Source: Octopus sinensis (lineage: Eukaryota). From it: a stretch of 19,949 nt of DNA. The notes beneath the pieces were generated by a model, which was not told the DNA's origin, ran no database searches, and worked only from the letters and a program-made list of their open reading frames with translations. Where the stretch lies: contig NW_021824074.1 in assembly GCF_006345805.1 (NCBI RefSeq), positions 1 through 19,949 on the forward strand, given 5' to 3'. Below are positions 511 through 19,949 of the stretch, piece after piece. Both the position numbers and the translations under genes were made by a program. How positions within the stretch are numbered: position 1 is the stretch's first letter; the number at the start of each line of letters is the position of its first letter.

Positions 511-709
511 GTTCTTTATTAGCCACACAGGGCCGCACACAGATAGAACAAATTACAAGGTAGAGTTTTTTTTGAAGGATTAAAAAAAAAAAAAACAAAA
601 TAAAAAAAAAAAATGGGAAAGGGAGAGTTTCGATCAAAAGGACGTCGTAAAAGGAGAGAAAGAGGACAAAAAAAGGGGGGGGTTAAAAAAAAAAAAAAAA
701 AAAAAAAAA
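511..709 (-). mobile_element. 3' end fragment of a non-LTR retrotransposon (L1/Tx1-like 3' UTR)
   Basis: Homologous to 15167-15506 (ttctttatt.gccacacaggg..gcacacagat.g.acaa.ttacaaggtagag...ttcgatcaaaagg). Minus strand ends GTGTGGCTAATAAAGAAC after a polypyrimidine tract. Lies between GATA arrays. Clade assignment is inference. Confidence 0.6.
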
Positions 710-720
710 GATAGATAGAG

Positions 721-754
<34 letters not shown>

Positions 755-769
755 TACAGACAGGCAGAC

Positions 770-819
<50 letters not shown>

Positions 820-833
820 GATAGATAGATAGA
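710..833. repeat. (GATA)n microsatellite
   Basis: GATA/GACA tandem array. Confidence 0.95.
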
Positions 834-1240
834 TTTCTTTATTGCCCACAAGGGGCAAAACATAGAGGAGACAAACAAAGACAGACAAAGAGATTAAGTC
901 GATTACATCGACCCCAGCGCGTAACTGGTACTTAATTTATCGACCCCAAAATGATGAAAGGCAAAGTCGACCTCGGCGGAATTTGAACTCAGAGCATAAA
1001 GGCAGACGAAATACCTATTTTTTTACTACCCACAAGGGGCTAAATACAGAGGGGACAAACAAGGACAGACAAACGGATTAAGTCGATTATATCGACCCCA
1101 GTGCGTAACTGGTACTTGATTTATCGACTCCGAAACTATGAAAGGCAAAGTCGACCTTGGCGGAATTTGAACTCAGAACGTAACGGCAGACGAAATACCG
1201 CTAAGCATTTCGCCCGGCGCGCTAACGTTTCTTCCAGTTC
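834..1240 (-). mobile_element. tRNA-derived SINE family A, composite (head-body-tail-body-tail) with AATAAAGAA-type tail
   Basis: Minus strand has an A-box-like segment (CTGGAAGAAACGTTAGC), B-box GAGTTCAAATTCC and central GTCGACTTTGCCTTTCAT..GGGGTCGATAAATTAAGTACCAG. The 124-bp body occurs at 1076-1199 and 892-1015; tails at 1016-1075 and 834-891. GATA arrays on both sides. Confidence 0.85.
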
Positions 1241-1242
1241 AA

Positions 1243-1255
1243 GATAGATCGATAT

Positions 1256-1326
<71 letters not shown>
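1243..1326. repeat. (GATA)n microsatellite
   Basis: Tandem array. Confidence 0.95.
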
Positions 1327-1327
<1 letters not shown>

Positions 1328-1509
1328 AGGAATGGATGTAAACACATTAAATAAGTGTGTGTAAATGTGTGTGTGTGACTACGTGTTCAGAGAAATGAAA
1401 GTTCATTGACTGAGCGAGAATAAGTATGTCAGGAATATCCATATATATATACAAACACACATATATATACACACATACATATACACATGCATTCTAAATG
1501 ATCTTAACA

Positions 1510-1522
1510 CAGACAGACAGAG

Positions 1523-1608
<86 letters not shown>
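1510..1608. repeat. (GACA)n/(GATA)n microsatellite
   Basis: Tandem array. Confidence 0.95.
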
Positions 1609-1794
1609 GCACGTGACACATTTATTATGATTGAACCAATTAAATTCAGCATAAATTCATCCTTTTTCAATACATATTTATACACACCCTCAGACATATA
1701 GACACACCTACACACACAAACATGCATGCATCCGCACATACAAACAAACAAGTATTATATTATATACATTTACATGAACGTCGTTACATGTGCG

Positions 1795-1942
1795 TATATA
1801 TATGTTTGTAAATTGTGTGTATATGTGTATATATTTATATATATTTATATATGTAATATATATATTCATATGTATATATATAATATATATATATATGTGT
1901 TAATATATATATATATATATGTATGTGTATATATATGTATAT

Positions 1943-1996
<54 letters not shown>
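1795..1996. repeat. Degenerate (TA)n/(TG)n low-complexity tract ending in pure (TA)n
   Basis: Dinucleotide repeats. Confidence 0.9.
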
Positions 1997-1998
<2 letters not shown>

Positions 1999-2380
1999 CG
2001 ATGGATGAATGAATTATCCTATGTTTACCGTCAATATGAGGAAATTCGATGAACCTGGTACCAGGGTAGCAAATTCACGTCAGAAACACGGTTGAAGCGA
2101 CCTATCCAAAGGTAGAAACTCCGGGTTCATGTGCAGAATTGCAGAAATTGGTGTGTTATATATGAATAAATAAATAAATAAATGGAGTTGAACGAAGGTG
2201 TTAATAAAATGCCTTTACTTTCGACATATGTTTCGAAGACAACATGGTTTTATTCCAAAGGAATAAACGGTGTAAGATGCAATCTTCTCATCGGGAAAGA
2301 AAGGGATCCTCTCTCAACAACAAGACAAAACAATAATTACGATGACTACCTACATGATAAACAAAACGTTTATTTATTCA
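1997..2380 (-). mobile_element. Probable Penelope-like element terminal (pseudo-LTR) or retrozyme-like fragment
   Basis: Non-repetitive block bounded by (TA)n on both sides and containing a type I hammerhead motif, the ribozyme type known from PLE pseudo-LTRs. No ORF recognised. Confidence 0.45.
2218..2299 (-). ncRNA. Type I hammerhead ribozyme-like motif (U4C core variant)
   Basis: Minus strand: CUUUC (stem I) - CCGAUGA (core) - GAAGA...UCUUC (stem II, with inner hairpin UUUAUUCC-UUU-GGAAUAAA) - GAAA - C AUAU G (palindromic stem III ACAUAUGU) - UC^ - GAAAG (stem I). Confidence 0.65.
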
Positions 2381-2543
2381 TATATATATATATACTAGCA
2401 ATATAACCCGGCCTTGCCCGGGATTAAGTTACGATTATTAAGCTAATCAAGTTCTTTATTTCAAACCAAACTAAGTAATATAGACGTCAAATTTGGGCGA
2501 AATCCGTTGAAATTAGTTATATTATATATATTATATATATATA

Positions 2544-2996
2544 TCATCTTGATCACCTTGACCGACCTGTCCGTCGGGCGTCCATTTGACACCGCTGGTC
2601 ACAGCACGCTGTCCACTCCTCTCTGGATCACGCCTTTCTCATCCACGTGATCCCAATCGTCCTCCTGAAATCGTAACTCCACCGTCGTGGAGGCCTTCCG
2701 GGTGGTCGTTTCCGCTCGCGCAGGTACCACTCGACAACTGCGCGGGTCCACCGATTATCGGTGAGCCGGGCGACGTGTCCAGCCCATCTAAACTTGCTGC
2801 GTGTATACTCTGCGATGACATCCCTCACGCCGGACTTCTTTCTGATGATCTCGCTACTGATGTGCTCTCTCAACGAGATACCAAGCATTGACCTTTCCAT
2901 GGCTCTTTGAGCCGTTACCAGTCTCTGCTCTTCTCTCTTTGTTGTAGCCCATGTTTCACTACCATACAACATTGCAGGTAGAACTGTACTGTTGAT

Positions 2997-2998
<2 letters not shown>
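2544..2998 (-). mobile_element. 5'-truncated RTE-clade LINE (post-RT C-terminal region and 3' end)
   Basis: Translation INSTVLPAMLYGSETW...RAMERSMLG...KFRWAGHVAR..DNRWT...RPPGRPPRRW, typical of RTE. One in-frame stop near 2628. Short repeat tail (TCAAGGTGATCAAGATGAT). Flanked by (TA)n on both sides. Confidence 0.9.
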
Positions 2999-3035
<37 letters not shown>

Positions 3036-3580
3036 GCAACAGATATGAACATACATACACACACGTACGTGCGTACACCTATTGCGTGTTTTGTGCACGC
3101 ATACATGTTCATAAACAGAAATGAATGGAAAAATTTTGTTAAATTTGTAGATTAACACTCGCACGATTTTCACGAAGAAAAAAATCGTTTTTTTTTTTGG
3201 CGTAGAATCAACTACTCTGGCCTCAAAACCCTTTTTGTGCTCCGTGAAACGGAGTTGGATGCGGTGGAAGCCTCGCAAATTGTACCCATTTATATTGTGT
3301 AATTTACTGGCAAATTGGTACTCACCTCTTTGTTTCCTTGTTGTTAAATAAATGGATTGTCAACAAAACACTTTTTTACTCGGCGTAAAATAAAAACAAA
3401 ACTCTTTCGCACCCAAAGTAATGTGTGTGAGAGAGAGGGAGGAGAAAGATAAACGATTTAAAATAAATATATTGTAATTGTTGTGTGAGAAAGTATATAT
3501 ACTATAATTATCAAATATGGTGTCTTTCAAAAACAAAAAACAAAACATTTTACATTTTATTTTTTATGAACGTTGTCACT

Positions 3581-3582
<2 letters not shown>

Positions 3583-3631
<49 letters not shown>
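3583..3631. repeat. (CT)n microsatellite inside Helitron
   Basis: Tandem array. Confidence 0.95.
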
Positions 3632-3635
<4 letters not shown>

Positions 3636-5017
3636 TTTCTCACTTTGTCTTTCCCGTGAAACTCTCTGCCTCCTTCTTCCACTTTTCTTTATCTTTTTTT
3701 GTTAGACGCCGTCAATAAAGCTATGGCTGATATTTTCATGGCTAAAAGCTATGGTTGAAAATAGATTTTTACGCGGTTGACTTGGGAAAAAAATAAGTTG
3801 ATAAAACCCAGATAGGATGTTGACGAATGTCCTCCTAAAATTTGAGTGACATGCGTGCTAATTTGTGGATGTGCATAAATTACAATCACGTACACACATA
3901 TCATGCCTTTTATAGATATGATTATATATTAGAACCTAAAAGATAAATTATTACGGCTATATCTAAGAAATTATTCTAGAGAAATTAAACTGCATATATT
4001 CGTATTGACTATGATATCCTAAATCTAACACTTTCAAGATGTTACTGAACTCCTTCCTTATAGCATCCATTATATGACCTTTTAAATTTCACCGATTGAA
4101 TAATGGATAATAATTCAAATAAAACAAGCCTTTTTTCCGAGGTATATCCAGCCTGTGCAATCCTGTTAATTTACAAACCTCATTTCCATGTTTTGATCCA
4201 TGGAAACATCAAACAATGCAAAAATATCTACGGTTTTCTAAAAGTTTAATTCAGCATTTCTCCATACACCAGAGATATCACAAGATTTTTTTCGAAAATG
4301 GTTATACAGTAATCTATAGATACTCTAAAGCTTTTGCTGTTTCTACAGCCTGTATAAGGCAATTTTTGCCGTATAAACGTGTAAAATTCTTCCCTTCTAT
4401 AGAAGCGAACCTAATATCTGCCATATCAACGACAATCTAAAAGTGTTAATTTATCAAAATATGTTCCACCAGATGACTTTGAAACAGAAGCCAAAACTAC
4501 ATGGAGCTAACGAAAAATTCTCTTGAATTTCTGCAATATGTTTAAGAGCATTAAAATACTGACGAAAACAGCTTTCCACATTACTCTCGAAATACATCTG
4601 GTGTATAAAGTATTATAACTAACAATTATAATACATTCTGAGTGATTAAAAAACATGATGGCCCGCTAGATTACTGGAGCCAGATGATGCAATATTTCCC
4701 TATCGTCAAAGTGTAACACTGTAGTATAGTTACAGCCTTTTTCGCAAATTCGGACAAAAGGATGACATTCGTGAATTCCTTTTTAACAAGTTCATCACGA
4801 TTTATTAAAGAATTTTCCCCAAACTAGTTGGCTAAAATAGCGTTATGGTTTCCCTGCATAAAATTGTTTGATCAACTCTTAGTCTAGCAAACTGATGAGA
4901 GGAAAATTTCCCGTATGTTCCGTTTCTTATTTGATACCTTTTTTTTCTATTTACATCGCGAATCATGCAATTCTTTTTCTCCTCACACAAGCATACACGC
5001 GCGCGCATACACACAGT

Positions 5018-5097
<80 letters not shown>

Positions 5098-5122
5098 ATG
5101 ACAGACAGACAGACAGACAGAC

Positions 5123-5183
<61 letters not shown>

Positions 5184-5209
5184 TGCATATGTGTGTGTCT
5201 GTCTACCTG

Positions 5210-5251
<42 letters not shown>

Positions 5252-5260
5252 CATACATAT
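5018..5260. repeat. Compound (GATA)n/(GACA)n/(TA)n/(TACA)n microsatellite
   Basis: Tandem arrays; source of the spurious ORFs at 4832-5336. Confidence 0.95.
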
Positions 5261-6191
5261 GGGGTGGTTGTGGGTACGATGAAGTGTCTATTATAACGAA
5301 TGGAGAACCACATGTAGCCTTCAGCCTTTCTTCCATAAACGAAGATTTAAACCCAATTATATTGATTATAAGCTATTATTTATAGCAGTGTCCACTCCGA
5401 CATACGCCGTTAAAATAATTTATCAACATAATTTCCAAAGCTTCAACATTTCTAAGAATAGAAGATACAGATATTCAGTTTATAACTGGGACATATTTTA
5501 ACCCCTCACCACAAGAGAGTAGACAAAATGAGAGTGAGTGAAATGGCATTAGAGTCTCTATCGTTCTGAATTCTACCTATAAACATATTTTTCTCCTTAA
5601 TATTATAAAACCAGAAGACAACCATTTAATTTCAACAAATAATATTTTCATCACCTGCGCGTGAGTTTCGGCCTATTATGTTTCATCAGAACAGCTCTTT
5701 GCAATCCCGGTTAGAAAAAAAAAACATTACATTTTAAGACGCGTCATATTTCAAAGAAATATTCGTAGTCTCTGAATTGCTGTATTGTATATGTTGTGGT
5801 CAGAACTGTATGTAGCTGTTAGAAGAAATTAAACCAGGAATTACATTTTATTCTGTCGTTAATGCAGAATATTCTTGATGTCTTTTCTCTCTTCATTGAT
5901 GTTTCGTTTAGGATTAAATCCATATTTTGACTGCTGCAGTATAAAGTTTATAGCAAATGGTGATTGTGCTTCTTTCTCCATCTCTGCTGAAATCATAAAG
6001 TTTTACTTGCAGTTCTCTTATCAGCGGAAGCAGATAGAGAAGCACAATCACCATATGAGATAAAACTGTAAAATTCAGTTTACAGTAGCCGGAAAACGAA
6101 TTTCGTCCTGAATAGTAACAAATAGATAATGAAGAAGGAAAACATAATTATTGTCTTTTAATTCTTTTATGTTCCTTAATTTTGAATAATC

Positions 6192-6383
6192 GTGGAGGCG
6201 CGTGGCTTAGTGGTGAGGGTGTCAGCATCATGATCGTAAGATTGTGGTTTCGATTCCTGGACCGGGCGACGCGTTGTGTTCTTGAACAAAACACTTCATT
6301 TCACGTTGCTCCTGTCCAGCTGGGGAACACATATGCCATTGAAACCGGGCCCATGAACCTGGCTAGACTTTAAAAGGGCGCAA
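6192..6383 (+). mobile_element. tRNA-derived SINE family B with CORE-like segment
   Basis: A-box TGGCTTAGTGG, B-box GGTTTCGATTCC, then TTGTGTTCTTGAACAAAACACTT (CORE-like). Its tail matches the reverse complement of 13283-13360. Confidence 0.85.
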
Positions 6384-6485
6384 GTGGAGGCGCAATGGCC
6401 CAGTGGTTAGGGCAGCGGACTCGCGGTCGGAGGATCGCGGTTTCGATTCCCAAACCAGGCTTTGTGTGTGTTTATTGAGCGAAAA
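6384..6485 (+). mobile_element. SINE family C, head only (3'-truncated)
   Basis: A-box TGGCCCAGTGG, B-box GGTTTCGATTCCC. Near-identical to the reverse complement of 8044-8145. Confidence 0.9.
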
Positions 6486-6520
6486 TTAAAAACGTTTACC
6501 AGTAAACGTTTTTAATTTTC
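6481..6520. repeat. Perfect inverted repeat, 19-bp arms, 2-nt loop
   Basis: GAAAATTAAAAACGTTTAC-CA-GTAAACGTTTTTAATTTTC. Confidence 0.95.
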
Positions 6521-6630
6521 AATCCTTTCGAGAATTTATCCATAATTAGTAGTTTGAGTTTTCTACTGCTCTTTCTAGCACAAGGCTTTCCTATTTGGAA
6601 GCCTCTAATGTGTTCTAATGTACACGATAT

Positions 6631-6663
<33 letters not shown>

Positions 6664-6699
6664 ATATATATATATATATTTACATGAGGATAAGCATAT

Positions 6700-6790
6700 T
6701 AAAAGGAGTCCTTGGAAAACTCATTTAAATGAAAAGGTTGAGAAAACACTGTTGGAAACCACTGGGAAAAGATTAGGAACCACTGTTTTA
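6700..6790 (+). mobile_element. Possible hAT/Charlie-type DNA transposon terminus, locally reiterated
   Basis: GGAGTCCTTGG...AAAAGGTTGAGAAACACTG followed by GGAAACCACTG and AGGAACCACTG, resembling hAT MITE right ends. No matching left end seen. Confidence 0.35.
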
Positions 6791-7759
6791 AAGTAACAGA
6801 GATGAGACATGGGAAATGGTAAATGGTGTTTCGTATTAATTATTGGCTGTTTCTAGGTTGTTTCTTTGTTTTCTTGGTCGTTCGAATCAGGTTTGGGTGC
6901 ACAACTATAGTATGTTAATAGACTGCTAACTTCTATATAATATTACATTGGATTGTAGTCCATCCATAATCACATATTCTGTTTCCGTTAACCCATAAAC
7001 GTTTGGTTATGAAATTTAATATTCTGCCTTATATGATATTGTCAGTACCGCTATGCTTTAGTATTGAAGCAGGTTTTATATTCAATCTATGACACAGAAT
7101 TATAATTGTACATCCTATATGACAGTCATATTTATGGCAAATATTACATAAATATTTCTAATCGAATTTACATGTGACATCCATCATCTCAGCTCCACAT
7201 GCCTAAAAGATTGCAGTATATTTTAATACGAATTTGCTTTATTATTTTCCATACGAAATATATAGGCCCCAGATACAATATAGAACGTTGTCATATTATG
7301 TCGTATTAAAAGAATAAAAACTCGGTTTCATCTCTAGCCAATACTCGTTTTTATTTTCAATATCTTTCTTATCTTCTCTATATTTATGACAAAACTTTGA
7401 ATAAAATATACACTTCCATTAAAACCAGTATAAAACATAAGACCACATCTTTTGATTTAAATATTATTTTCCTGATTTTGTAATGTATTTAATAATGTTT
7501 TCTTTTAGCTCCGTTTAATGTCCTACATGTTTGTAACCGTACACTGATAAGAAATACATTCGACTATTTTACAACCTGCGTGCTTTTGTTGGTGAGTAGA
7601 CTATTTCCCAGTAAAATATATTCTACCTCCCAACATATTGTGGCTATGTGTTCTCACAGCGCTATGTATTGTCGCTAGAAGAATCTTTTATTATATTGTA
7701 TATATGTGTGTATATATTCTTGTATGTATGTATGTATTTATGTATGTATGTATGCACGT

Positions 7760-8145
7760 GGATGGAAGCACTCCGTCGGTTACGACGACGAGGGTTCCGG
7801 TTGATCCGATCAACGGAACAGCCTGCTCGTGAAATTAACGTGTAAGTGGCTGAGCACTCCACAGACACGTGTACCCTTAACGTAGTTCTCGGGGATATTC
7901 AGCGTGACACAGAGAGTGACAAGGCCGGCCCTTTGAAATACAGGTACAACAGAAACAGGAAGTAAGAGTGAGAGAAAGTTGTGGTGAAAGAGTACAGCAG
8001 GGATCACCACCATCCCTGCCGGAGCCTCGTGGAGCTTTAGGTGTTTTCGCTCAATAAACACTCACAACGCCCGGTCTGGGAATCGAAACCGCGATCCTAC
8101 GACCGCGAGTCCGCTGCCCTAACCACTGGGCCATTGCGCCTCCAC
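7760..8145 (-). mobile_element. Full-length SINE family C with 10-bp TSD
   Basis: tRNA-like head GTGGAGGCGCAATGGCCCAGTGG...GGTTTCGATTCCC on the minus strand; CpG-rich. TSD GTATGCACGT at 7750-7759 and 8146-8155. Confidence 0.92.
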
Positions 8146-8177
8146 GTATGCACGTATATGTGCAAGTACGTATGTAA

Positions 8178-8627
8178 TTCTTTTATTAAGTACTCAGCCT
8201 TTAACACAAAAGGGACAACACAAGGACAGACGGAACACCGCAGTGGGGACAAAAGACAAAACGAACGAAAAATGAAAAATGTATAATGAAATGATGTTGA
8301 TGAAATGGCTGCATGCGGTACGATTTGAACGTTCTTACCTTCAGTTTATAATCTTTTTCTTTTTCTTTGTTTTTCCTAATAGTATCATTTTGTTTACTCT
8401 TTTTTTCTTTTTTTTTAAACAATTTTCCTCTTTTTTTTTAATATCTTATGCATGGTTCTATTTCCCTTAGTTCTACTACTAGTGGCAGTTCATCGAACTC
8501 CACCACGAAGCCTCGTGGTTCAACTTTACATTTTCCCTTCAACTTGCTATATTTTTCTTTATCGATTAAAATTGCTTTCACAATTTCACCGTACATGTCC
8601 TTGGGCAACTTAACCCTTATATTGGAT
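8178..8627 (-). mobile_element. 5'-truncated retro-insert: coding-like fragment plus L1/Tx1-like tail, no RT, 12-bp TSD
   Basis: TSD GTACGTATGTAA at 8166-8177 and 8628-8639. Open frame SNIRVKLPKDMYGEIVKAILIDKEKYSKLKGKCKVEPRGFVVEFDELPLVVELREIEPCIRY. Ends GTCTGTCCTTGTGTTGTCCC...TAATAAAAGAA. Confidence 0.7.
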
Positions 8628-8662
8628 GTACGTATGTAAATGCAATACATGTATCTGTGTGT

Positions 8663-8691
8663 GTATGTATGTATGTATGTATGTATGTATG

Positions 8692-8725
<34 letters not shown>

Positions 8726-8742
8726 TGTATGTATGTATGTAT
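8663..8742. repeat. (TATG)n microsatellite
   Basis: Tandem array. Confidence 0.95.
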
Positions 8743-8744
8743 TA

Positions 8745-8945
8745 GTCGCCATGCTTGATTGTTAAATCCACAAGTTTGTTTATTCTCTGTTTATTTTTTC
8801 TTATTCCCTTCTGCTGAAGAGCGTAGGCTCGAAACATAAAAGACTTTCTCATTTTCTCCGAGCATCAAACTAATACATCTTCTTGTTGTTCATACACCTG
8901 TCTTCGTCTTTTGTTTCTTTTTTTTTTAATAAATTTCAACTATGT
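8745..8945 (+). mobile_element. Possible Penelope-like terminal fragment with minimal hammerhead-like core
   Basis: CTGAAGA-GCGTAGGCTC-GAAAC at 8814-8835, followed by a T-rich tract and AATAAA. Stems I and III are not well formed. Confidence 0.35.
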
Positions 8946-9217
8946 TTTTTAATAAATTTCAACTATGTTTAGAGTAATATCAGCCATAATTTATCTAAAA
9001 CTCCAAGACAAATGTTTTCATCACCCTTCTTCAACTTGGAATATTGTCTATAGAATTGCTCTCATCCAAACAGATCGTGTGACAATAGGCTTTTCATGAG
9101 ATCAGATATTGAAGCAGCCTGTGGCATCTCTTAACAAGAGACTCGTGAAATCTCCAGAAAATTCCTGAGCACTGCAGAGTCAATGAAATAACCGCGTAAA
9201 ATCCTTTATACAACAGC

Positions 9218-9390
9218 TACAAGGCCGGAAATTTGGGGGAAAGTCGATTTCATCGACCCCCAATGCTCAAATGGTATTTATTTTATCGACTCCGAAAGGA
9301 TGAGAGACGAAGGTGACCTCGACATAATCTGGACCCAAAACGTAAAGACGGAAGAAAAATCCGTCAAGCATTCTACCCGCTCACCAGCTT
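9218..9390 (-). mobile_element. Diverged SINE family A
   Basis: AAGTCGATTTCATCGACCCC...TTTATCGACTCCGAAAGGATGA matches the family A body. Confidence 0.8.
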
Positions 9391-9689
9391 AGTAATTCGA
9401 AAAAAATAAAAATCATGGGTTACTAAGAATTGCTTCCCTTTCTGATCCTGGTTTCGCTGCTTTCCTTCAATTATAGTCGTACAGTTTATCTTTCTCCCGG
9501 TCTGAAAAAGTTTTGACCGTTTGAGGGAGCAATAACCTTGGCGACTGAGAACAAACGTCTTTCAGAGAATAGAAAATGGAGCGAATCATCAACTGAAAAC
9601 TTATTTATAAGTTATATAAAGTATATACAAACTTTTCACAATGTATTAAGTGCTCTTTTCATCCCTTTGTGCTTATAAACCCACAGACA

Positions 9690-9692
9690 CTG

Positions 9693-9737
<45 letters not shown>

Positions 9738-9751
9738 TGTATGTATGTATG

Positions 9752-9783
<32 letters not shown>

Positions 9784-9960
9784 ATACATGCATGTGTAAA
9801 CGTCTACCTGCACAAACCAGAAAAGACCACTCTCTCTTTTCTTCTATCTTTCTCTTTCTCTCTCTCTCTCTTTCTTTCCATCTATCTATCTAGCTAGCTC
9901 TGTGTATATATACATATACATATATATATGTGTGTGTGTATATGTATATATATGTATATA

Positions 9961-9999
<39 letters not shown>

Positions 10000-10432
10000 A
10001 TATATATATATATATTATATATATATATATAATATATATATTAATATATCTGTATGTATATAGTCATCCACATATATATTCGTATATGTATATTTATGTG
10101 TGCGCGTGCATGTGTGTGCGTATGGATTGCGTTAAACATAAATATGAGTATGTGTTTGTGTGTGTATGTGTGTGTGTGTGTGTGTGTGTGTCTGTGTGTT
10201 ATTGTATAGTTCGACATGAATACCACCACCACAGACAATGTGTCTAATAAAGCTGTACAATGTTGACATGTCTGACGGCGGTAGACATGTTTGAGCACTC
10301 TTCAGTCTTTAGAGGAAGCAAAGTTGGAAATCAATGAATTGTTGCTTCCCCCGCCTCTCTCTTTCTCTTTCTCTCTCTCCCCCTCTCTCTCCCTCTCTCT
10401 CACTGTATCCCTATATACACTGACACACACAT

Positions 10433-10463
<31 letters not shown>

Positions 10464-10467
10464 TACG

Positions 10468-10550
<83 letters not shown>

Positions 10551-10620
10551 GTATATATGTACGTACGTATATACGTATGTGTGTGCGTATGTATGCATGT
10601 ATCTATGTATATATCCATTT
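9690..10620. repeat. Cluster of (CA)n, (TA)n, (CT)n and (TG)n microsatellites
   Basis: Multiple dinucleotide tracts separated by short unique spacers. Confidence 0.9.
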
Positions 10621-10918
10621 ATGCATGGAGAGAGAGAGGGATTTGGAAAGAGAGAGAAATAGAGAAACAGAATAATACTTACTACATTGATTGGTAAGAA
10701 TAAAAGAGAAAGAAGATGGAGAGGAAAGGGTATGTAAAAGATGGGTGGTAGAATAGATTAGGGGAGCGGAGGAGGGGAGAGAGAAGAGCGCCTGGGTGAA
10801 TAAATGAAACAGTGGGTATTTGTTTAAATGAGTAAAGGAATTAAAGAGGGATGGGCAGAATGGGAAGGATGAGAAGGGAGGAGAAGTAATGTTCGAGTAT
10901 GAGTGAGGGATTATGTTG

Positions 10919-11480
10919 TGAATGAATGAGTTAGTGAGTGAGAGAATGAGTGAGGGGGTGAATGAGTGAGTGAGTGAGTGAGTGAGTTAGTGAGTGAGAG
11001 AATGAGTGAGGGAGTGAATGAATGAGTGAGTGAGTGAGTGAGTGAGTGAGTGAGTGAGTGAGTGAGTGAGTGAATGAGTGAGTGAGTGAGTGAGTGAGTG
11101 AGTGAGAGAATGAGTGACGGAGTGAATGAGTGAGTGAGTGAGTGAGTGAGTGAGTGAGTGACTGAATGAGTGAGTGGGTGAGTGAATGAGTGAGCAAGTG
11201 AGTGAGTGAGTGAGAGAAAGAGTGAATGAGCAAGCGAGTGAGTGAGTGAGTATGTGAGCAACCGAGTGATTGAGCAAACGAGTGAGTGAACAAACGAGTG
11301 AAATGATTGAGCGAGTGAACAAGCGAGTGAGTGAATGAGTGAGTAAGAGAAGGAGGGAGTGGGTGAGTGAGTGAATGAGTGAGTGAACAAGCGAGTGAGT
11401 GAGTGAGTGAGTGAACAAGTGAGTGAGTGACTGACTGACTGACTGACTGACTGGGTGAGTGAGTGAGTGAGTGAACGAGT
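10919..11480. repeat. Long degenerate (GAGT)n microsatellite with a (GACT)n patch
   Basis: About 560 bp of 4-bp periodicity; explains the THSL-type ORFs. Confidence 0.95.
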
Positions 11481-11499
11481 GCATAGATCTGTGAATAAA

Positions 11500-11785
11500 C
11501 GTACGTTCGAAACACAAATCCGATACCGTACCAATCGGTAACGTTCCATCCCCATCGGAACCAAAAACTTCGAAGCCAGCAGAAGAGGAAAGGAAGAAAT
11601 CAAAGGAAAGGAGAGAAAGGCTCGACAAAACAAGCCTCATCCTTCACCAACATTACCATGCAGTCACTGCCATCAGTTCTATGCAAGAATTGGTCAACAG
11701 AGGAATCTGCAGCATCACCATAAAGGAAGCGTTCAGCAAAGAAGAAAAAATAAAGTCTCGGATACGAGATGGAATCGACGACGAT
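11500..11785 (+). mobile_element. 3' end of an RTE-clade LINE with C-terminal C2H2-like zinc finger
   Basis: Translation IGTKNFEASRRGKEEIKGKERKARQNKPHPSPTLPCSHCHQFYARIGQQRNLQHH resembles the RTE C-terminal CxxC..ARIGL.SH..H motif. Tail GATGGAATCGACGACGAT. Confidence 0.75.
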
Positions 11786-11937
11786 ATATGTAAACATACA
11801 TATATATATATATGTGGGCGGGGGCGTGTGTGTGCGTGCGTGTATATATATATGTGTGTGTGTATATATATGTGTGTGTGTGTATATATATGTGTGTATA
11901 TATATGTGTGTGTGTGTGTGTATGTGTGTGTGTATAG

Positions 11938-12303
11938 TCTTTTATTCTTTTACTTGTTTCAGTCATTTGACTGCGGCCATGCTGGAGCACCGCCTTAAAG
12001 AGTGTTGGTCGAAGAAATCGACCCCAAGACTTATTCCTTGTTAGCCTAGTACTTATTCTAATGGTCTTTTTTGCCGAACCGCTAAGTTACGGGTACATAA
12101 ACACATAAACATCGGTTGTAAAGCGATGGCGGATAGACAAACACTGACACACACACACGAAAATATATATATATATATATAATATATATATATATATACG
12201 ACGGGCTTCTTTCCGTTTCCGTCTACCAAATCTACTCACAAAACTCTGGTCAGCCCGGAAGCATGTGGTTGGTAAACAAGCTTCTTACAACACACCCACG
12301 CCT
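11938..12303 (-). mobile_element. SINE family D with internal microsatellite and no B-box
   Basis: Minus head AGGCGTGGGTGTGTTGTAAGAAGCTTG, body GGTAGACGGAAAC, internal (TA)/(TG) tract, tail CATGGCCGCAGTCAAATGACTGAAACAAGTAAAAGAATAAAAGA. Recognised from recalled octopus repeats. Confidence 0.75.
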
Positions 12304-12344
12304 ATGTGTGTGTGTGTGTGTGTGTATACATATATATATGAAAA

Positions 12345-12561
12345 TATCAAAGGTCCTTTGCGAGCCATATGCTCCTTCTTAGGCCAGTTAACGGGATTCT
12401 GTGACGTAACTATTTCCCCACTGGTCGGGAAGCCGGTCTGTCGCAAGGTTATTCATTTTTGCCAGTCGACTGAACGGGAACAACGCGAAGTAAAGTGCGT
12501 TGCTCCAGAACACAACGCATCATGAGTGTAACACCTTAACCACACCCCCACACACCTCCAC
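12345..12561 (-). mobile_element. Diverged SINE family B lacking B-box
   Basis: Reverse complement aligns to 6192-6312 (GTGGAGG...TCATGA/GCGTTGTGTTCT...CACTT.A.TTC.CGTTG) with about 36 bp missing. Confidence 0.7.
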
Positions 12562-12699
12562 ATATACACAAGGAATTCCAATTTAATCGGAATCTACACG
12601 ATCTGAAACATATTTGTAGGAAAGATGTATTTAATTTTCTCAAGGTTATGAAGAAGCAAATCTTTGGGACACATTTGCGTTGATATGCCTAAATATTTA

Positions 12700-12737
<38 letters not shown>

Positions 12738-13181
12738 AGGATGTGCATAAAACTAACTCTGTAAAAATGAATGTGTTTGTATATATATTTGTATAATAAG
12801 AGATCTCCCAAAAATCAATTTCCTTCATTACTAACTACTGTTTCTGGCACACATATTTACGCAATTTTGATTTTGAAGTATTTAAAAAATTATTTGGAAA
12901 TTATAAAGAGAAACGAATGGTAGATTTCGGACTGTCCGTATCTTAAAACCACGAATTAAAACAAAACGTGTGTCAAATATTTCCCCAGAAGTTCATGGCT
13001 TCACAGGAATAAGCGTGGAAAACTGCATCGATATAACCAATTTTCAAATTTTTAGTTCCTTTCTAAAAATGCAAATTTTGTGAATGAAACAAATTAGATC
13101 CTGAATAAGAAATGAATGTTTAATATGACAGATTTTTCTACGTCATTTTAAAAGGGGGCTGATTTTGTGACTCAAACTAAC

Positions 13182-13186
<5 letters not shown>

Positions 13187-13230
<44 letters not shown>

Positions 13231-13260
13231 TTGTGTGTGTGTGTATAGATAGATAGATAG
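13187..13260. repeat. (TG)n followed by (GATA)n
   Basis: Tandem arrays. Confidence 0.95.
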
Positions 13261-13282
13261 ATTGATATATAACGATAAGCGT

Positions 13283-13416
13283 CGCCTTTTTCACGCCTAG
13301 CCAGGCTCATGGGCCCGGTTTCCCGGTTTGTGTGACGTATGTGTTCCTCCCAGCTGGACGAGACGCCAGTCCATCGCAGCGTTACTCAAGAAATAGGAAG
13401 AGAGAGTGAGAGAAAG
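13283..13416 (-). mobile_element. SINE 3' fragment combining the family B tail with a family C internal segment
   Basis: 13283-13360 matches the reverse complement of 6316-6380. GAAATAGGAAGAGAGAGTGAGAGAAAG matches 7952-7978. Confidence 0.7.
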
Positions 13417-13510
13417 GGTCAATAAATTAAGTACCAGTTGCGTACTGGGGTCGATCTAATCGACTGGTCCCCAACCCAAAAATTTCGAGCCTTGTGCCTA
13501 GAAAAGAATA
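13416..13510 (+). mobile_element. SINE family A 3' half
   Basis: GGGTCAATAAATTAAGTACCAGTTGCGTACTGGGGTCGATCTAATCGACT...GCCTTGTGCCTAGAAAAGAA. Confidence 0.85.
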
Positions 13511-13748
13511 GAATTTTACATGTTAAACATATTCCTGGAAGCTGTTATGTAAATATTAATGACTTCTAGGGACTCCGTATTTCATTATGCAACCATAAAT
13601 ATACTACAAAATATATTAAATTCCTGAAATGTGTCGTATACGCTCATTACCCATTTTTCGTCTTCGATCTCGTTGTTTGTTTACATCTGGTGTCTCGGAT
13701 ACGAAACGTCGAAACAAAATCAATGCGGGCTTTAATTTTTATAGAACA

Positions 13749-14257
13749 CTAGCAGTATCGCCCGGCGTTGCTCGGGTTTGTAAGGGAAATAACTATATAA
13801 GCATTTTTAGAGAGTTACTTCCCTTATAGATGCCAATTCGGGCTTTCTTAGCCATTTCTGTTTTGGTGTCTTCAAGCCATGATGTCGTTGTTCTAAAAGA
13901 ACGCTGGTCTCCTTGACAACGCTTTACGACGTTAATTTCCTTACACTCCCTTCCCCACAGCTTCACGAGGAGGGAAGAAGGGGGAGAAGCAAACAGGTGC
14001 AGGTGTGACCATGGCCGCCAACTCCGCCGCCGCCACACGAAAAATTATACATTAAAATGGAATAAAAAATGATGTTAAATTATTTTTAAAATCGTAGACT
14101 CATCGTAGACGCGCGCTAATACTCAGACGGGCTCGATATGAATCACGACTATAAGATACCCGAATTTGGTTAAACTGCACCGCAAAATGTGGGAGTAGTT
14201 AGGAATCTAAATCGAAGGGGACAGACACTCACACAACTACAGTTTTATATATATAGA
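13749..14257 (-). mobile_element. Complete 509-bp non-autonomous Helitron
   Basis: Minus strand A^TCTATATATATAAAACTG ... CCCGAGCAACGCCGGG (hairpin) CGATACTG CTAG^T: 5' TC, 3' hairpin plus CTAG, A|T insertion, no TSD. Confidence 0.85.
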
Positions 14258-14963
14258 TATGTAGAGATAATCTTAACAAAAGAGTGAATAGGATATCTTC
14301 TAAAAGTTCAATATTAATTTTATTTTCATGAAAATGTAGTTTTATGGCATTTTTTTAAGGAATCAAATAACACTGAACCACTGAATCAAATATCACAACG
14401 AGTCATAATTTTTGCGAGCCTCCATCTTGGATTTTCATTTTTTTTTTTTTCACTTTTTAATTCCCGACTTATTTTCGATTTATCACGCTATCTTAACTAA
14501 CAGTCAGGAAAAAAAAAACATACACCCAGAGCTAAACCTTTCTGCGATGTTTAGGTACTTAAATTCGCCATTCAAATTACGGGTATAAATTCATCATTAA
14601 CATACATCGATCTTAGTATTAATTGTATAATTTACTGTAATTCTCCATGTTTATAAATTTGGTGCTTGTTACTTTTGGCTGACATTTTCATAATGTTTAT
14701 GCTAACAAAATTACACATCATTAATAACTATTAACTATTATTTTAACGGATAAATCAGGATTTCAAAAACATTGATTAACAGAAATACATAACATGTATA
14801 TTGATCTTATGTTTATATTTAGCTTCTTTTTTTTTCTTTAGAAGGGTAACCAGGTACGAATAACACGTGTAATTATATCGATAGCATACACTAATCTTAG
14901 TATTAATTATGTAATTTATTGTATATTTAACTTTATGTGTATTCACATGTGTGTGTTAATGTC

Positions 14964-15037
14964 TGTATGTATGTATGTATGTATGTATGTATGTATATAT
15001 ATGTATGTATGTATGTATATATATATATATATAATAT

Positions 15038-15070
<33 letters not shown>

Positions 15071-15160
15071 TTGTATGTATGTATGTATGTATGTATGTAT
15101 GTATGTATGTATGTATGTATATATATGTATGTATGTATGTATGTATATATGTATGTATGC
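14964..15160. repeat. (TATG)n/(TA)n compound microsatellite
   Basis: Tandem arrays. Confidence 0.95.
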
Positions 15161-15166
15161 AAGATA

Positions 15167-15506
15167 AGTTTCTTTATTGGCCACACAGGGCTGCACACAG
15201 ATGGGACAAGTTACAAGGTAGAGCTTTTCTTTCGAAGGAGAAAAAAAAAAGGTGGCGTAGGTTTTCGATCAAAAGGGATCGTAAAAGGGAAAAAAGAACA
15301 AAAGGAAAAGAAGAAAAAAAGAAAAAAAGGAAAAGAAAAAAAGAAAAAGAAAAAAGGAAAAAAAAGAAAAAAGAAAAAAGGAAAAAAAAGAAAAAAGAAA
15401 AAGGAAAAAAAAGAAAAAAAGGAAAAAAGAAGAAAATGAAAAAAGAAGAAAAGAGAAAAAAAGGGGGAGAGGAAAAGAAACGATCAATAGGGATCGTGTA
15501 TCACAG
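15167..15506 (-). mobile_element. 5'-truncated L1/Tx1-like 3' UTR insertion with 13-bp TSD
   Basis: TSD TGTATGCAAGATA at 15154-15166 and 15507-15519. Minus strand ends GCCCTGTGTGGCCAATAAAGAAACT after a long polypyrimidine tract. Homologous to 511-709. Confidence 0.75.
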
Positions 15507-15513
15507 TGTATGC

Positions 15514-15515
<2 letters not shown>

Positions 15516-15574
<59 letters not shown>

Positions 15575-15619
15575 TGATTGATAGATAGATAGATAGATTG
15601 ATTGATAGATAGATTGATT

Positions 15620-15650
<31 letters not shown>

Positions 15651-15662
15651 TGATAGATAGAT

Positions 15663-15702
<40 letters not shown>

Positions 15703-15711
15703 TGATAGATT

Positions 15712-15795
<84 letters not shown>

Positions 15796-15796
15796 T
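15516..15796. repeat. (GATA)n with GATT variants
   Basis: Tandem array of about 280 bp. Confidence 0.95.
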
Positions 15797-16084
15797 ACAT
15801 ATATTGCATATATATAGATATATATATAGAGAGAGGGAGGGAGTAGAGAGAAAAAGAGGCTCAGCATCGTAAAATTACATGTGTGTGTATGTGTGTGAGC
15901 GCGCTTATGTATGTATGTATGTACATATGTATGTATGTATGTATGTTTAGGGTGGGTGGTTATTTTTTTTTTTCGAGATGGAAATGAAATATTATTTACT
16001 ACAGAGTGTGGGCGTGGAAAGCACTTCAATTTTTAAAAACATGTACAGAGTTGCAAAAAAGTATCTAATGATTGTTTCGCATGT

Positions 16085-16292
16085 TAACACAGGGCCAACA
16101 ATATTAAGAGGATGGATTGTACGATGACACCGACCGCACAGCCCTTCCTTCCCACCAGAACTTGTAGTTGACAGATTTTATTTCATCGATTATAAAAAAG
16201 ATGGAAGGCAAGGATGATCTCGGCGGGATTTGAGCTCAGAACGAAAAAGAGCAAGAAGAAATACCGTTAATGGATTTTGTCCGACGCGCTCA
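16085..16292 (-). mobile_element. Old SINE family A
   Basis: GATGGAAGGCAAGGATGATCTCGGCGGGATTTGAGCTCAGAACG...GAAATACCG. Confidence 0.75.
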
Positions 16293-16294
16293 TT

Positions 16295-16410
16295 CCAAAG
16301 GATGAAAGGCAAAGTCGACCTCGGTGGAATTCGAACTCAGAACGTAGTGGCAGACGAAATACAGTTAAGCATTTCGTCCGGCGTGCTAACGATTCTGCCA
16401 GCTCGCAGCC

Positions 16411-16411
<1 letters not shown>
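16295..16411 (-). mobile_element. SINE family A 5' part
   Basis: Head GCGAGCTGGCAGAATCGTTAGC and B-box GAGTTCGAATTCC on the minus strand. Confidence 0.88.
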
Positions 16412-16468
<57 letters not shown>

Positions 16469-16530
16469 CAACAACAACAACAATAATAATAATAATAATA
16501 AATAATAATAACAACAACAACAACAACAAC

Positions 16531-16577
<47 letters not shown>

Positions 16578-16599
16578 TGATGATGATGATGATGATGAT
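16412..16599. repeat. (AAT)n/(AAC)n/(GAT)n compound microsatellite
   Basis: Trinucleotide arrays. Confidence 0.95.
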
Positions 16600-16995
16600 C
16601 CTTTCTACTGGAAGCACAAGGCTTCAAATTTGGGGGAAGGGATTAAGTCAATTACATCGACCCCAGGGTGTAACTGGTACTTAATTAACCGACCCCGAAA
16701 GGATGAAAGGCAAAGTCGACCTCGATGGAATTTAAACTCAGAACGTAGCGGCAGACGAAATACCTATTTCTTTATTGCCCACAAGGGGCTAAACATAGAG
16801 GGGACAAACAAGGACAGACATAGGTATTAAGTCGATTACATCGATCCCAGTGCGTAACTGGTACTTAATTTATCGACCCCGAAAGGATGAAAGGCAAAGT
16901 CGATCTCGATGGAATTTAAACTCAGAACGTAGCGGCAGACGAAATACCGTTAAGCATTTCGACCGGTGTACTAACGATTCCGCCAGCTCGCAGCT

Positions 16996-17078: not shown

Positions 17079-17374
17079 CAGAAATTCAAAAGATAGTGCT
17101 CATGGGAACTGCTCATATCCTACGCAAAATACTTGTAATCTCAAGGTTTAAAACAAACATAATTTTCGGTTTAAAAAAATAAATAAATAAATAAAAAATA
17201 AAAAAAAATAAAAAAACCTTTTTTAGACATTCATTAGTACAACACCCCCACCCCCCAAATATATGGCACACTAAGCATAACAACAACATGAACTTCCAAC
17301 CCTGTTGTCTCTTGAGGTCTCTGGGTGAGACTTGGAGCCAACTTGTACAAATATAAAGCAAAAGTCAAACATAG
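17079..17374 (+). mobile_element. R4/Dong-type LINE 3' end (ORF terminus plus 3' UTR) in (AAT)n
   Basis: EIQKIVLMGTAHILRKIL, homologous to IQKIALLGTAHILRRTL at the end of the 18079-19286 element. (AAT)n on both sides. Confidence 0.8.
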
Positions 17375-17972: not shown

Positions 17973-18078
17973 TAAGTACCAATGAAACACTGAGGGTCGA
18001 TGAAATCGACCTAAGCCCTCCCCACGAATTTCGTACCTTGTTCCTCCAGTAGAAAGGATTATTATTATTATTATTATT
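17971..18078 (+). mobile_element. SINE family A 3' fragment with (ATT)n tail
   Basis: ATTAAGTACCA...GGGTCGATGAAATCGAC...CCAGTAGAAAGG(ATT)n. Confidence 0.8.
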
Positions 18079-19281
18079 CAGTAGTTTTATTTTTATAGCG
18101 TGCTTTCACTTCACTACGAGCGCAGCTCTGTGTGCCTTGGGTATGTGCTGTGATTTGTCGTGATGCTCTGATGGTTACTGTATTGAAAGTGTTCTTCGTA
18201 GGATGTGTGCAGTGCCCAGTAGTGCAATTTTCTGTATGTTATATGTGTTTGTAAGTCCTGGTATTTTTGTTATGTATTTGTCTGAATATTTTTTTATCAT
18301 GCCTAATGTACCTACTATGATAGGAATTTTTCTGTTTTTAGATTCCACATTCTAGTTACCTCGATTTCCAGGTCTTTGTATTTTGAAAGTTTCTCCATTT
18401 CTTTTAGAGACACGTTGTCATCTGCTGGTATTGATACATCAATTAGAAAGTATTTTTTTTCTTCATGATCCCTGACAACTATATCTTGTCTGTTGGCCTT
18501 AATTTCTCTATCTGTGTGTATTGGCATATCCCAGAGTATGGTCGCTTTCTCGTTTTCTGTGACCTTTTCTGCTGTGTGCCTATACCATCTTTTTTCTGTT
18601 GTTATTCCATAATGTTGGCATAGCTTCCAGTGTATGTAGGTCCTAACTCTGTCGTGTCTGTGAATATATTCCTTCTTAGCCAGGACTGGGCAGCCAGAGA
18701 TAATATGATTTATTGTTTCTTGTCAATCTCCACATATTCTGCAGTTACTTGTTATATTTCTTTTCATTATATAATAGAAATATTAAAATATTTATAAGAT
18801 TGCCATATTAGTGTGGTGATAACTATTAATTTTCATTATATGTTTTTGGTAATTTCTGGTGGGAAGCTTTGGTTTTGTGCTGCAATTAAAAATCCCTCTG
18901 TCTCTGCTTTGAGTCCTCAGCTTCTCAACCATTGCTGGGATTTTTCTTTGTCTATTTCATTTGCGTTTAGTTTAGTCCAGTATTTGCCATGAAGGGGCTT
19001 TTCTTGACATCGTTTTATCATGGTCCGTTACTGTTCTAGTTTTATTTTGGATTTCATTTGTTTTATAGCTTTTGTTGTGTCTTCTTCTTCTTCTTCTTCT
19101 TATTCTTCTTCTTCTTCTTCTTCTTCCTTTCTCTTCTTCTTCTTTCCTTCTCTTCTGCTTCTCCTTCTCCTCCTCCCTTCTCTTCTCTTCTTCTTCTTCT
19201 TCTTCTTCTTCTTTTCTTCTTCTTCTTCTCTTCTTCTTCTTCTTCTTCTTCATATTTGTTAGGTGGTATGATTTCTTGTTT

Positions 19282-19580: not shown

Positions 19581-19949
19581 TAAGTTAAGTTAATTTTTTG
19601 GCTCAAGAAGCAAAAAGCAAGGCCATGTAGGGGGACATGGAGTTATGTACAGGGTAGTGTTCGTGCAAAGAGTTCATGCCATTTCTGGTCAAGAGAGACT
19701 TTGAACCGAGCTGTCGTCGGCATCTTCACTATCTCGTCCGGCAGCTTATTCCACGGATCGGCAACCGGGACGGAGAAAGCCCCTCTCCTTCGATTGAGAT
19801 GAAATCGTCGCAGATAGAGCTTTTCGGAGTGACCCCGCAGCCAACGCTCTGGAGCAGGAGTGAAGAACAGCTCTTTCGAGAGGTTACACTTTCCGTTTAT
19901 GATGTTGTGAGCAAGAAGAGATCACCACGGCGTCGTCGTTTTTCTAGAG
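19579..19949 (-). mobile_element. CR1-clade LINE 3' end (continues beyond the window)
   Basis: LEKRRRRGDL/(frameshift)LAHNIINGKCNLSKELFFTPAPERWLRGHSEKL...RRGAFSVRVADPWNKLP...FKVSLD, stop 19643-19645, tandem tail (TAACT)n. Confidence 0.9.

What the first reader, a model, noticed from the sequence alone, without database searches (positions are those of the whole stretch)
511..16824. One AATAAAGAA-ending 3' tail module shared by three unrelated cargo types
Seen: a minus-strand terminal motif TTGTCCC.T.T.TGT...AG......(G)....AATAAA(A)GAA ends (a) SINE A copies at 834-891, 1016-1075 (degenerate) and 16765-16824, (b) polypyrimidine 3'UTR-like fragments at 511-709 and 15167-15506, and (c) an ORF-bearing insert at 8178-8627. 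Two inserts have clean 12-13 bp TSDs and none has a long poly(A). Established: LINE proteins of stringent families recognise 3' tails, and SINEs acquire tails from partner LINEs; Tx1-group L1 elements are often target-specific. Inference: one L1/Tx1-like machinery mobilises a community of passengers through this tail. SINEs with a sequence-shared L1/Tx1 tail are unusual, because mammalian L1 uses poly(A).
Basis: partly seen in the sequence, partly recalled or inferred. Interest (0 to 1): 0.75.

Follow-up and report, generated by a model that had tools for sequence, protein, structure and literature searches.

The report
SINE and half-LINE wear Tx1 tail
In this animal genome (likely an octopus), a whole group of L1-related jumping genes ends not in poly(A) but in a short shared tail predicted to fold into a hairpin, and a very common short repeat and a half-length element carry versions of the same tail, so they likely borrow these genes' copying enzyme through it.

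Summary
The six tails are real and alike beyond chance, but the reading needs three corrections. (b) is no passenger: both pieces are 5'-truncated copies of an autonomous Tx1-like LINE (ORF1; APE-RT-zf ORF2) that lands in (TATC)n. (c) is a truncated ORF1-only (HAL1-like) element. In (a), two of three tails are internal joints of SINE chains. The tail is the poly(A)-less 3' end of a whole clade of Tx1-like families (ORF2 53-89% identical). A hairpin sits before AATAAA in 28 of 31 tails (24% at other AATAAA sites), with changing stem letters. There is likely no single machinery: the SINE tail is closest to families X/T and Y, the c tail to family Q, and only 103 SINE tails abut (TATC)3 against 74,836 exact tails. 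SINE target duplications often begin with the letters that follow the tail in chains (7 of 23; 2% expected), which hints at priming by read-through RNA. I found no Tx1-tailed SINE in eight paper searches; Repbase could not be checked. This scan has noted the same system several times on other DNA of this and another genome. New variant of stringent SINE-LINE pairing; untested in cells.

The parts
511..709 (-). 5'-truncated copy (3' UTR and tail) of autonomous Tx1-like LINE family b, inside a (GATA/TATC)n tract
   Evidence: 93% over 194 nt to the 3' UTR of full-length L158
834..1015 (-). second unit of a SINE A dimer (B box, body, Tx1-type tail; lacks the A box); terminal tail 834-893 followed by (TATC)n
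   Evidence: one of only 103 such SINE-tail/(TATC)3 junctions found genome-wide
1016..1240 (-). first unit of the SINE A dimer: tRNA-like head with A- and B-box-like motifs (judged by eye from recalled consensus; ARAGORN finds no tRNA), body, internal degenerate tail 1016-1075
8178..8627 (-). 5'-truncated ORF1-only (HAL1-like) element c: ORF1 C-terminal end (8438-8627), 3' UTR, tail
8166..8177 (.). 12-bp TSD of c, second copy at 8628-8639
15167..15506 (-). 5'-truncated copy (3' UTR and tail) of a second subfamily of LINE family b
   Evidence: 96% over 267 nt to L062, whose upstream DNA encodes ORF2
15154..15166 (.). 13-bp TSD of the b copy, second copy at 15507-15519
16765..16995 (-). first unit of a SINE A dimer; Tx1-type tail 16765-16826 is internal
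16597..16764 (-). second unit of that dimer, ending in a different tail (16597-16645) followed by (TCA/TTA)n; partner LINE not sought

Best explanation
The motif is the poly(A)-less 3' end of a clade of Tx1-like LINE families, also carried by a tRNA-type SINE and by ORF1-only elements, and it likely works as a folded RNA handle by which each family's ORF2 protein picks its template. SHOWN: the LINEs, their ends, the shared tail, 11-22 bp TSDs in all three kinds of element, family-specific tail variants and insertion contexts. PREDICTED: an extended hairpin with a variable upper stem and a nearly invariant lower stem in which UCU.UGU pairs with AUA.AGA, so that the AAUAAA hexamer is part of the stem. 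INFERRED: ORF2 binds this hairpin and starts reverse transcription about 3-6 nt after the hexamer, not on a poly(A) tail. Passengers likely use the families whose tails they resemble (SINE: X/T or Y groups; c: Q group), not the (TATC)n-specific family b that lies in the window. SINE chains likely arise because Pol III reads through the terminator-less tail into the rest of an older SINE copy; the few letters after the tail likely anneal to the cut target and bias target choice.
For: Autonomous carriers: full b element L158, 6.1 kb, ORF1 plus 1149-aa ORF2 with APE, RT, zf-RVT; 150 best copies 94-100% identical, several with 1149-aa open frames. Other families with the tail; ORF2 53-89% identical; tree. 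c is ORF1-only: N-part 27-39% identical to LINE ORF1s (E 1e-23 to 1e-40), no ORF2 between ORF1 and tail in 55 partly overlapping loci, full element L168 1.87 kb with 13-bp TSD. Hairpin: 28 of 31 tails against 331 of 1358 other AATAAA sites; shuffles 10.7 +/- 2.6, 0 of 2000 reach 28; 14 different stem triplet pairs. Lower stem: 96.1% of 180 cells paired against 49-65% when slid. All four common SINE-tail variants in 44 random copies fall on unpaired positions or turn a pair into G.U, including AATAAA to AGTAAA in 25 of 44. Tail matches: SINE 5' half best to Y, 3' half best to X; 4 of 5 c tails best to Q; b only to b. Target bias: 7 of 23 SINE TSDs begin with GGT, the start of the next unit, 2.1% expected, p=3e-7.
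Against: No retrotransposition assay; recognition of the tail is inferred. RNAalifold on the plain MAFFT alignment found no consensus structure; single tails fold little or no better than shuffles (z -2.5 to +1.4 in 9 tails). The hairpin rule was set after seeing the data and after fixing a range bug (one search gave 18 of 31); the 31 tails are related, and a few passes use another register. The lower stem has only one pair with a two-sided change and its letters may be conserved as sequence. No single sampled LINE matches the whole SINE tail. The GGT bias may reflect an endonuclease preference: two LINE TSDs (L146, L268) also start GGT. No named Tx1 reference was available for the tree.
Confidence: 0.72

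Rival explanations
1. One machinery (family b, the LINE in the window) moves all three kinds of element through a common tail.
For: Cross-class similarity is above shuffles; the SINE dimer at 834 shares a (TATC)n tract with a b copy; 103 SINE tails abut (TATC)3, perhaps 1.5-3 times my rough chance estimate from the tract frequency.
Against: b lands in (TATC)n in 21 of 29 copies; SINE tails do so about 0.1% of the time and none of the 30 c loci printed does. SINE and c tails match other families better.
Confidence: 0.07
2. The tail is conserved mainly as a transcription 3'-end signal (AAUAAA with upstream U/G-rich helpers); ORF2 recognition is relaxed, and the SINE simply captured a LINE end once by template switching.
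For: AATAAA is invariant in the 30 aligned tails (the tails were anchored on it); folds are weak.
Against: Insertions stop 3-6 nt after the hexamer without poly(A); 25 of 44 SINE tails carry AGTAAA, which keeps the pair but weakens the signal; stem letters change between sister families while pairing is kept; the descriptor found only SINE A and b in 600 kb, no captured mRNA ends.
Confidence: 0.15
3. SINE chains and the GGT bias come from a sequence-specific endonuclease of an unsampled Tx1 family that cuts at GGTA, inside the SINE and elsewhere, with no role for RNA-target annealing.
For: Tx1 families are often target-specific (PMC4494074, parts 1-3 read); several families here have fixed targets; two LINE TSDs start GGT.
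Against: The match to the next unit is graded (4-7 nt in the 7 cases) and differs between SINE tail variants (11 of 24 against 1 of 15, Fisher p=0.013), which fits template dependence, though different partners could also explain it.
Confidence: 0.3

Closest known systems
Stringent L1-clade SINE/LINE pairs: maize ZmSINE2/3 with LINE1-1_ZM; Chlamydomonas SINEX-3_CR with L1-1_CR (PMC3472496 part 1 of 3 read; PMC3747384 passages and Table 1)
   Same: About 45-50 nt of LINE 3' end shared with a tRNA SINE; hairpin with compensatory changes; L1-clade partner.
   Different: Here the host is an animal, the partner is Tx1-like, the LINEs have no poly(A), AAUAAA lies inside the predicted stem, and an ORF1-only element shares the tail. 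Those papers list 3 L1-tailed SINEs among 58 pairs, none with Tx1.
SINEU with Tx1-Mar in crocodilians (PMC4494074, parts 1-3 of 5 read)
   Same: SINE likely moved by Tx1; target preference; tandem insertions.
   Different: SINEU ends in poly(A), and no LINE similarity was found for the SINEU-1 3' half; the partnership rests on shared targets, not a shared tail.
HAL1, HeT-A, Ag-Sponge: ORF1-only LINE derivatives (PMC5786205, PMC5753468, passages)
   Same: c encodes ORF1 only, followed by a LINE-type 3' end.
   Different: Those derive from L1, Jockey and CR1; c is from a Tx1-like clade, has a CCHC knuckle, its own C-terminal domain and the structured poly(A)-less tail.
Kibi and Koshi, microsatellite-specific Tx1 elements; Keno (U2 snRNA) (PMC4494074)
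   Same: Family b prefers a microsatellite; one family sits directly 5' of a U1 snRNA gene in one locus.
   Different: Target is (TATC)n, not (TC)n or (TTC)n.
Mollusc HCD SINEs with CR1, CR1-Zenon, L2 or Nimb tails (PMC11481361, PMC4824008, passages)
   Same: Same SINE body found with more than one tail (tail exchange).
   Different: No Tx1 partner reported there (0 occurrences of 'Tx1' in either main text).

Membership tests
L1-group non-LTR retrotransposon | ORF1 plus ORF2 with APE endonuclease, RT and C-terminal zinc-binding motif | tested here: met
   Pfam PF03372, PF00078, PF13966 in ORF2 of families b, X, Z, V; best solved structure is human L1 ORF2p, E 2e-68
Tx1 clade | RT phylogeny with named Tx1 elements | not testable with these tools
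   No named Tx1 reference returned; nearest named-source homologues are unannotated fish proteins (365 bits against 234 for human L1, different searches)
Tx1 clade | ORF1 with CCHC zinc knuckle (recalled as typical of Tx1, absent in mammalian L1) | tested here: met
   zf-CCHC in ORF1 of X, Z, V; below cut-off in b (E 0.34)
Tx1 clade | Target preference and long TSDs | tested here: met
   b in (TATC)n 21 of 29; other families at recurring sites; TSDs 12-18 bp
tRNA-derived SINE | tRNA-related head with A and B boxes | tested here: inconclusive
   Box-like motifs seen by eye against a recalled consensus; ARAGORN and Rfam give no tRNA match
tRNA-derived SINE | Short, non-coding, interspersed, high copy, TSDs | tested here: met
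   About 230-nt monomer; 38 chains in 600 kb; 74,836 exact tail 30-mers; TSD 11-22 bp in 23 of 42
Stringent SINE/LINE pair | 3' end shared with an autonomous LINE | tested here: met
Stringent SINE/LINE pair | Conserved stem-loop with compensatory changes | tested here: inconclusive
   For. Against:
Stringent SINE/LINE pair | Tail required for retrotransposition | not testable with these tools
   needs a cell assay
HAL1-like ORF1-only element | ORF1 homologue, no ORF2, LINE-type 3' end, TSD | tested here: met
HAL1 proper | Derived from mammalian-type L1 | tested here: not met
   ORF1 is homologous to the local Tx1-like ORF1s and has a CCHC knuckle
Nin/Deu/Meta-domain SINE | Conserved central domain | not tested
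   Resemblance recalled only; no reference sequence on hand

The most novel reading that the evidence does not exclude
An animal L1-clade lineage addresses its RNA with a two-part code: a hairpin that hides AAUAAA in its stem sets where reverse transcription starts, and the read-through letters after the hairpin pair with the cut DNA and steer the landing site. Each family, half-LINE and SINE subfamily would thus inherit its target from its last landing site, and the SINE's mosaic tail would let it use several Tx1 families.
Probability: 0.25. Interest if true: 0.78.

Novelty: new variant of a known kind. Interest (0 to 1): 0.52.

Why it matters
Whether L1-clade elements were first stringent (tail-reading) and later relaxed (poly(A)-reading, as in mammals) is an open question posed for plants and algae (PMC3472496). 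A young, poly(A)-less animal L1-clade group with a covarying 3' hairpin and two kinds of passenger gives a direct test system and would be a SINE/Tx1 pair with a shared tail, which I did not find in print. It would also name a likely engine for one of the commonest repeats of this genome (about 170,000 chains, extrapolated from 38 in 600 kb).

Tried and rejected
RNAalifold on the MAFFT alignment of 30 tails: no consensus structure. Single-strand folds: unremarkable. First hairpin scan had a range bug, 18 of 31; repeated. Search for further cargo types with a tail descriptor in 600 kb of evenly spaced stretches: 41 SINE A, 3 b, none other; 1 hit in the reversed control; c was absent from that sample. 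A LINE that homes into the SINE head: 2,258 tail-into-head junctions exist, but 29 of the first 30 have a SINE upstream and 1 a LINE-type tail without ORF2 in 1.5 kb; one X-type LINE copy (L293) sits there. Parent of c: its ORF1 is no closer to family Q (33%) than to others (27-39%). Named Tx1 reference: none; ESM Atlas gave no result. Expression: no RNA holder listed; contigs of four runs laid on the b 3' end show presence only. Rfam and ARAGORN: nothing relevant in the window. Penelope-like plus-strand reading considered at the start and dropped once ORF2 was found upstream on the minus strand (that output was partly cut). Bao and Jurka 2010 not held.
Full report
Observation. Ten of 11 cross-class pairs of 60-nt tails beat dinucleotide shuffles (at most 9 of 2000); b511-c8178 did not. 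Without the AATAAA end, SINE-c and SINE-b15167 pairs remain, b-c pairs and b511-SINE pairs become weak. The 12- and 13-bp TSDs are exact. No tail has poly(A) (longest A-run 3-6 in 31 tails).

(b) is the LINE. Extending the best genomic matches of 15167-15506 upstream gave an ORF2 with RT and a C-terminal zinc motif. Full copies have ORF1 and a 1149-aa ORF2 with APE, RT and zf-RVT; L158 is 6.1 kb with a TSD inside (TATC)n. The window pieces are 93% and 96% identical to two subfamilies. Twenty-one of 29 copies with a readable tail (30 loci, 1 without) are followed directly by (TATC)n.

A clade shares the tail. A zf-RVT search and follow-ups gave at least nine family groups (my labels X, T, W/Z, V, U, b, Y, Q, S), ORF2 53-89% identical among the eight compared. 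Most end in TGTCC..TCT.TGT, a short hairpin, AATAAAGAAAT, then a 12-18 bp TSD; T ends AATAATAAAA and S has a longer spacer. A tree of the C-terminal 250 residues groups X/T/W/Z (100/100), V (100/100) and Y/Q (99/98) with S; b and U join weakly. ORF1 carries a CCHC knuckle. Human L1 ORF2p is the best solved relative. No named Tx1 was available, so 'Tx1-like' rests on architecture, target preference and the published count of 13 recently active L1-Tx1 families in Octopus vulgaris (PMC13282606, part 1 of 3 read).

(c) is a half-LINE. Relatives of 8178-8627 encode an ORF1 homologue (27-39% to LINE ORF1s, E 1e-23 to 1e-40) with its own C-terminal domain, followed by the tail. In 55 partly overlapping loci ORF2 hits occurred in 4, none between ORF1 and tail on the same strand. 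L168 is a whole 1.87-kb element with a 13-bp TSD. Copies are diverse (43-77% at protein level) and often head-to-tail. Four of 5 c tails match family Q best, one matches Y; the ORF1 parent was not found.

(a) is a SINE with a Tx1-type tail and chains. In 600 kb of evenly spaced stretches 38 SINE chains carried this tail and 16 hits were to a second tail. The genome has 74,836 exact 30-mers of the tail end and 29,652 exact tail-to-next-unit joints; reversed controls 0. At 1016 and 16765 the tail is such a joint. The SINE tail's 5' half matches Y best and its 3' half X best; family T differs from the T-variant SINE tail by one substitution and one indel over 36 nt. No sampled LINE matches all of it.

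Structure. A hairpin (at least 3 Watson-Crick pairs, ending within 3 nt of AATAAA) is present in 28 of 31 tails, against 331 of 1358 other AATAAA sites and 10.7 +/- 2.6 in shuffles (0 of 2000), with 14 different stem triplet pairs. The rule was set after looking, a first version had a bug (18 of 31), and the tails are related. Folding the last 33 nt often extends the hairpin so that UCU.UGU pairs with AUA.AGA; on the unfitted alignment these 6 pairs hold in 96.1% of 180 cells against 49-65% when slid, with one two-sided change. The four common variants in 44 SINE tails are all compatible with this model. Against it: RNAalifold found nothing on the MAFFT alignment and single tails are not unusually stable.

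Not one machinery. Only 103 SINE-type tails abut (TATC)3 (looser pattern), among them the window's copy at 834, and none of the 30 c loci printed does. Each family has its own context: b in (TATC)n, S in the head of another SINE, several in head-to-tail arrays, one before a U1 gene.

Priming. Of 42 non-focal SINE copies with head and terminal tail, 23 have a TSD of 11-22 bp; 7 of these begin with GGT, the first letters of the next unit, in both copies, against 2.1% expected (p=3e-7); the match runs 4-7 nt. It is commoner after the T variant (11 of 24) than the C variant (1 of 15). Two of three window units lack a T4 run. I infer read-through transcripts whose letters after the tail anneal to the target; an endonuclease preference is not excluded.

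Comparison with print. Ohshima lists 58 SINE/LINE pairs, only 3 with L1-clade tails (maize, Chlamydomonas). Crocodilian SINEU is linked to Tx1 by target, has poly(A), and SINEU-1 shows no LINE-like 3' half. Bivalve SINE partners are CR1, CR1-Zenon, L2 and Nimb. ORF1-only elements are known from L1, Jockey and CR1. Eight searches and passages of PMC4758252, PMC4824008, PMC5804259, PMC7245038, PMC10294476, PMC8967140 and PMC9004415 showed no Tx1-tailed SINE. SINE-derived tandem repeats are known (PMC10702118, search listing only). Repbase, Dfam, Ohshima and Okada 1994 and all supplements were not seen and may already describe these octopus elements.

Earlier notes of this scan (by sequence none) describe the same system on other DNA: SINE with Tx1 tail, ORF1-only elements, the (TATC)n family, SINE self-insertion. 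My reading of a, b and c and the microhomology idea was noted before I saw them. The claim that a LINE homes into the SINE head I could test only in part.

Verdict. Real, partly re-read: one structured, poly(A)-less 3' end shared across a Tx1-like clade and two passenger types, most likely with family-matched rather than single machinery. New variant of a known kind; interest 0.52.

Noticed in passing
L131:2228-2391 (G000:C15): A Tx1-like family V copy ends directly before a full U1 snRNA gene (Rfam 125 bits); possible U1-targeting family, seen in one locus only.
   Followed up: partly
L309, L312: Young family S inserts at a fixed site in the head of the other abundant tRNA SINE with a 12-bp TSD; its hairpin lies about 12 nt further from AATAAA.
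   Followed up: partly
L143, L145, L151, L150, L155, L144, L154, L315: Several Tx1-like families recur at the same flanking sequence and form head-to-tail arrays.
   Followed up: no
window 16597-16645 and 18030-18060: SINE A has a second tail ending in (TTA/TCA)n; partner LINE unknown.
   Followed up: no
window 18077-19000 (-) and about 17090-17370: Dong/R4-like element remains beside (TAA)n tracts (label recalled from the translation, not tested).
   Followed up: no
window 2560-2990 (-) and 19643-19921 (-): RTE-like and CR1/L2-like ORF2 C-terminal fragments (labels recalled, not tested).
   Followed up: no
window 11925-12290: Another abundant SINE-like repeat with an end resembling AATAAAAGA on the minus strand; not picked up by the tail descriptor.
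   Followed up: no
window 8438-8627; L163:2924-3373: The roughly 95-residue C-terminal domain of c has no Pfam match and no blastp match to the six LINE ORF1s compared.
   Followed up: partly
G000: 2,258 exact junctions where a tail is followed by the SINE A head sequence, mostly SINE inside SINE.
   Followed up: partly
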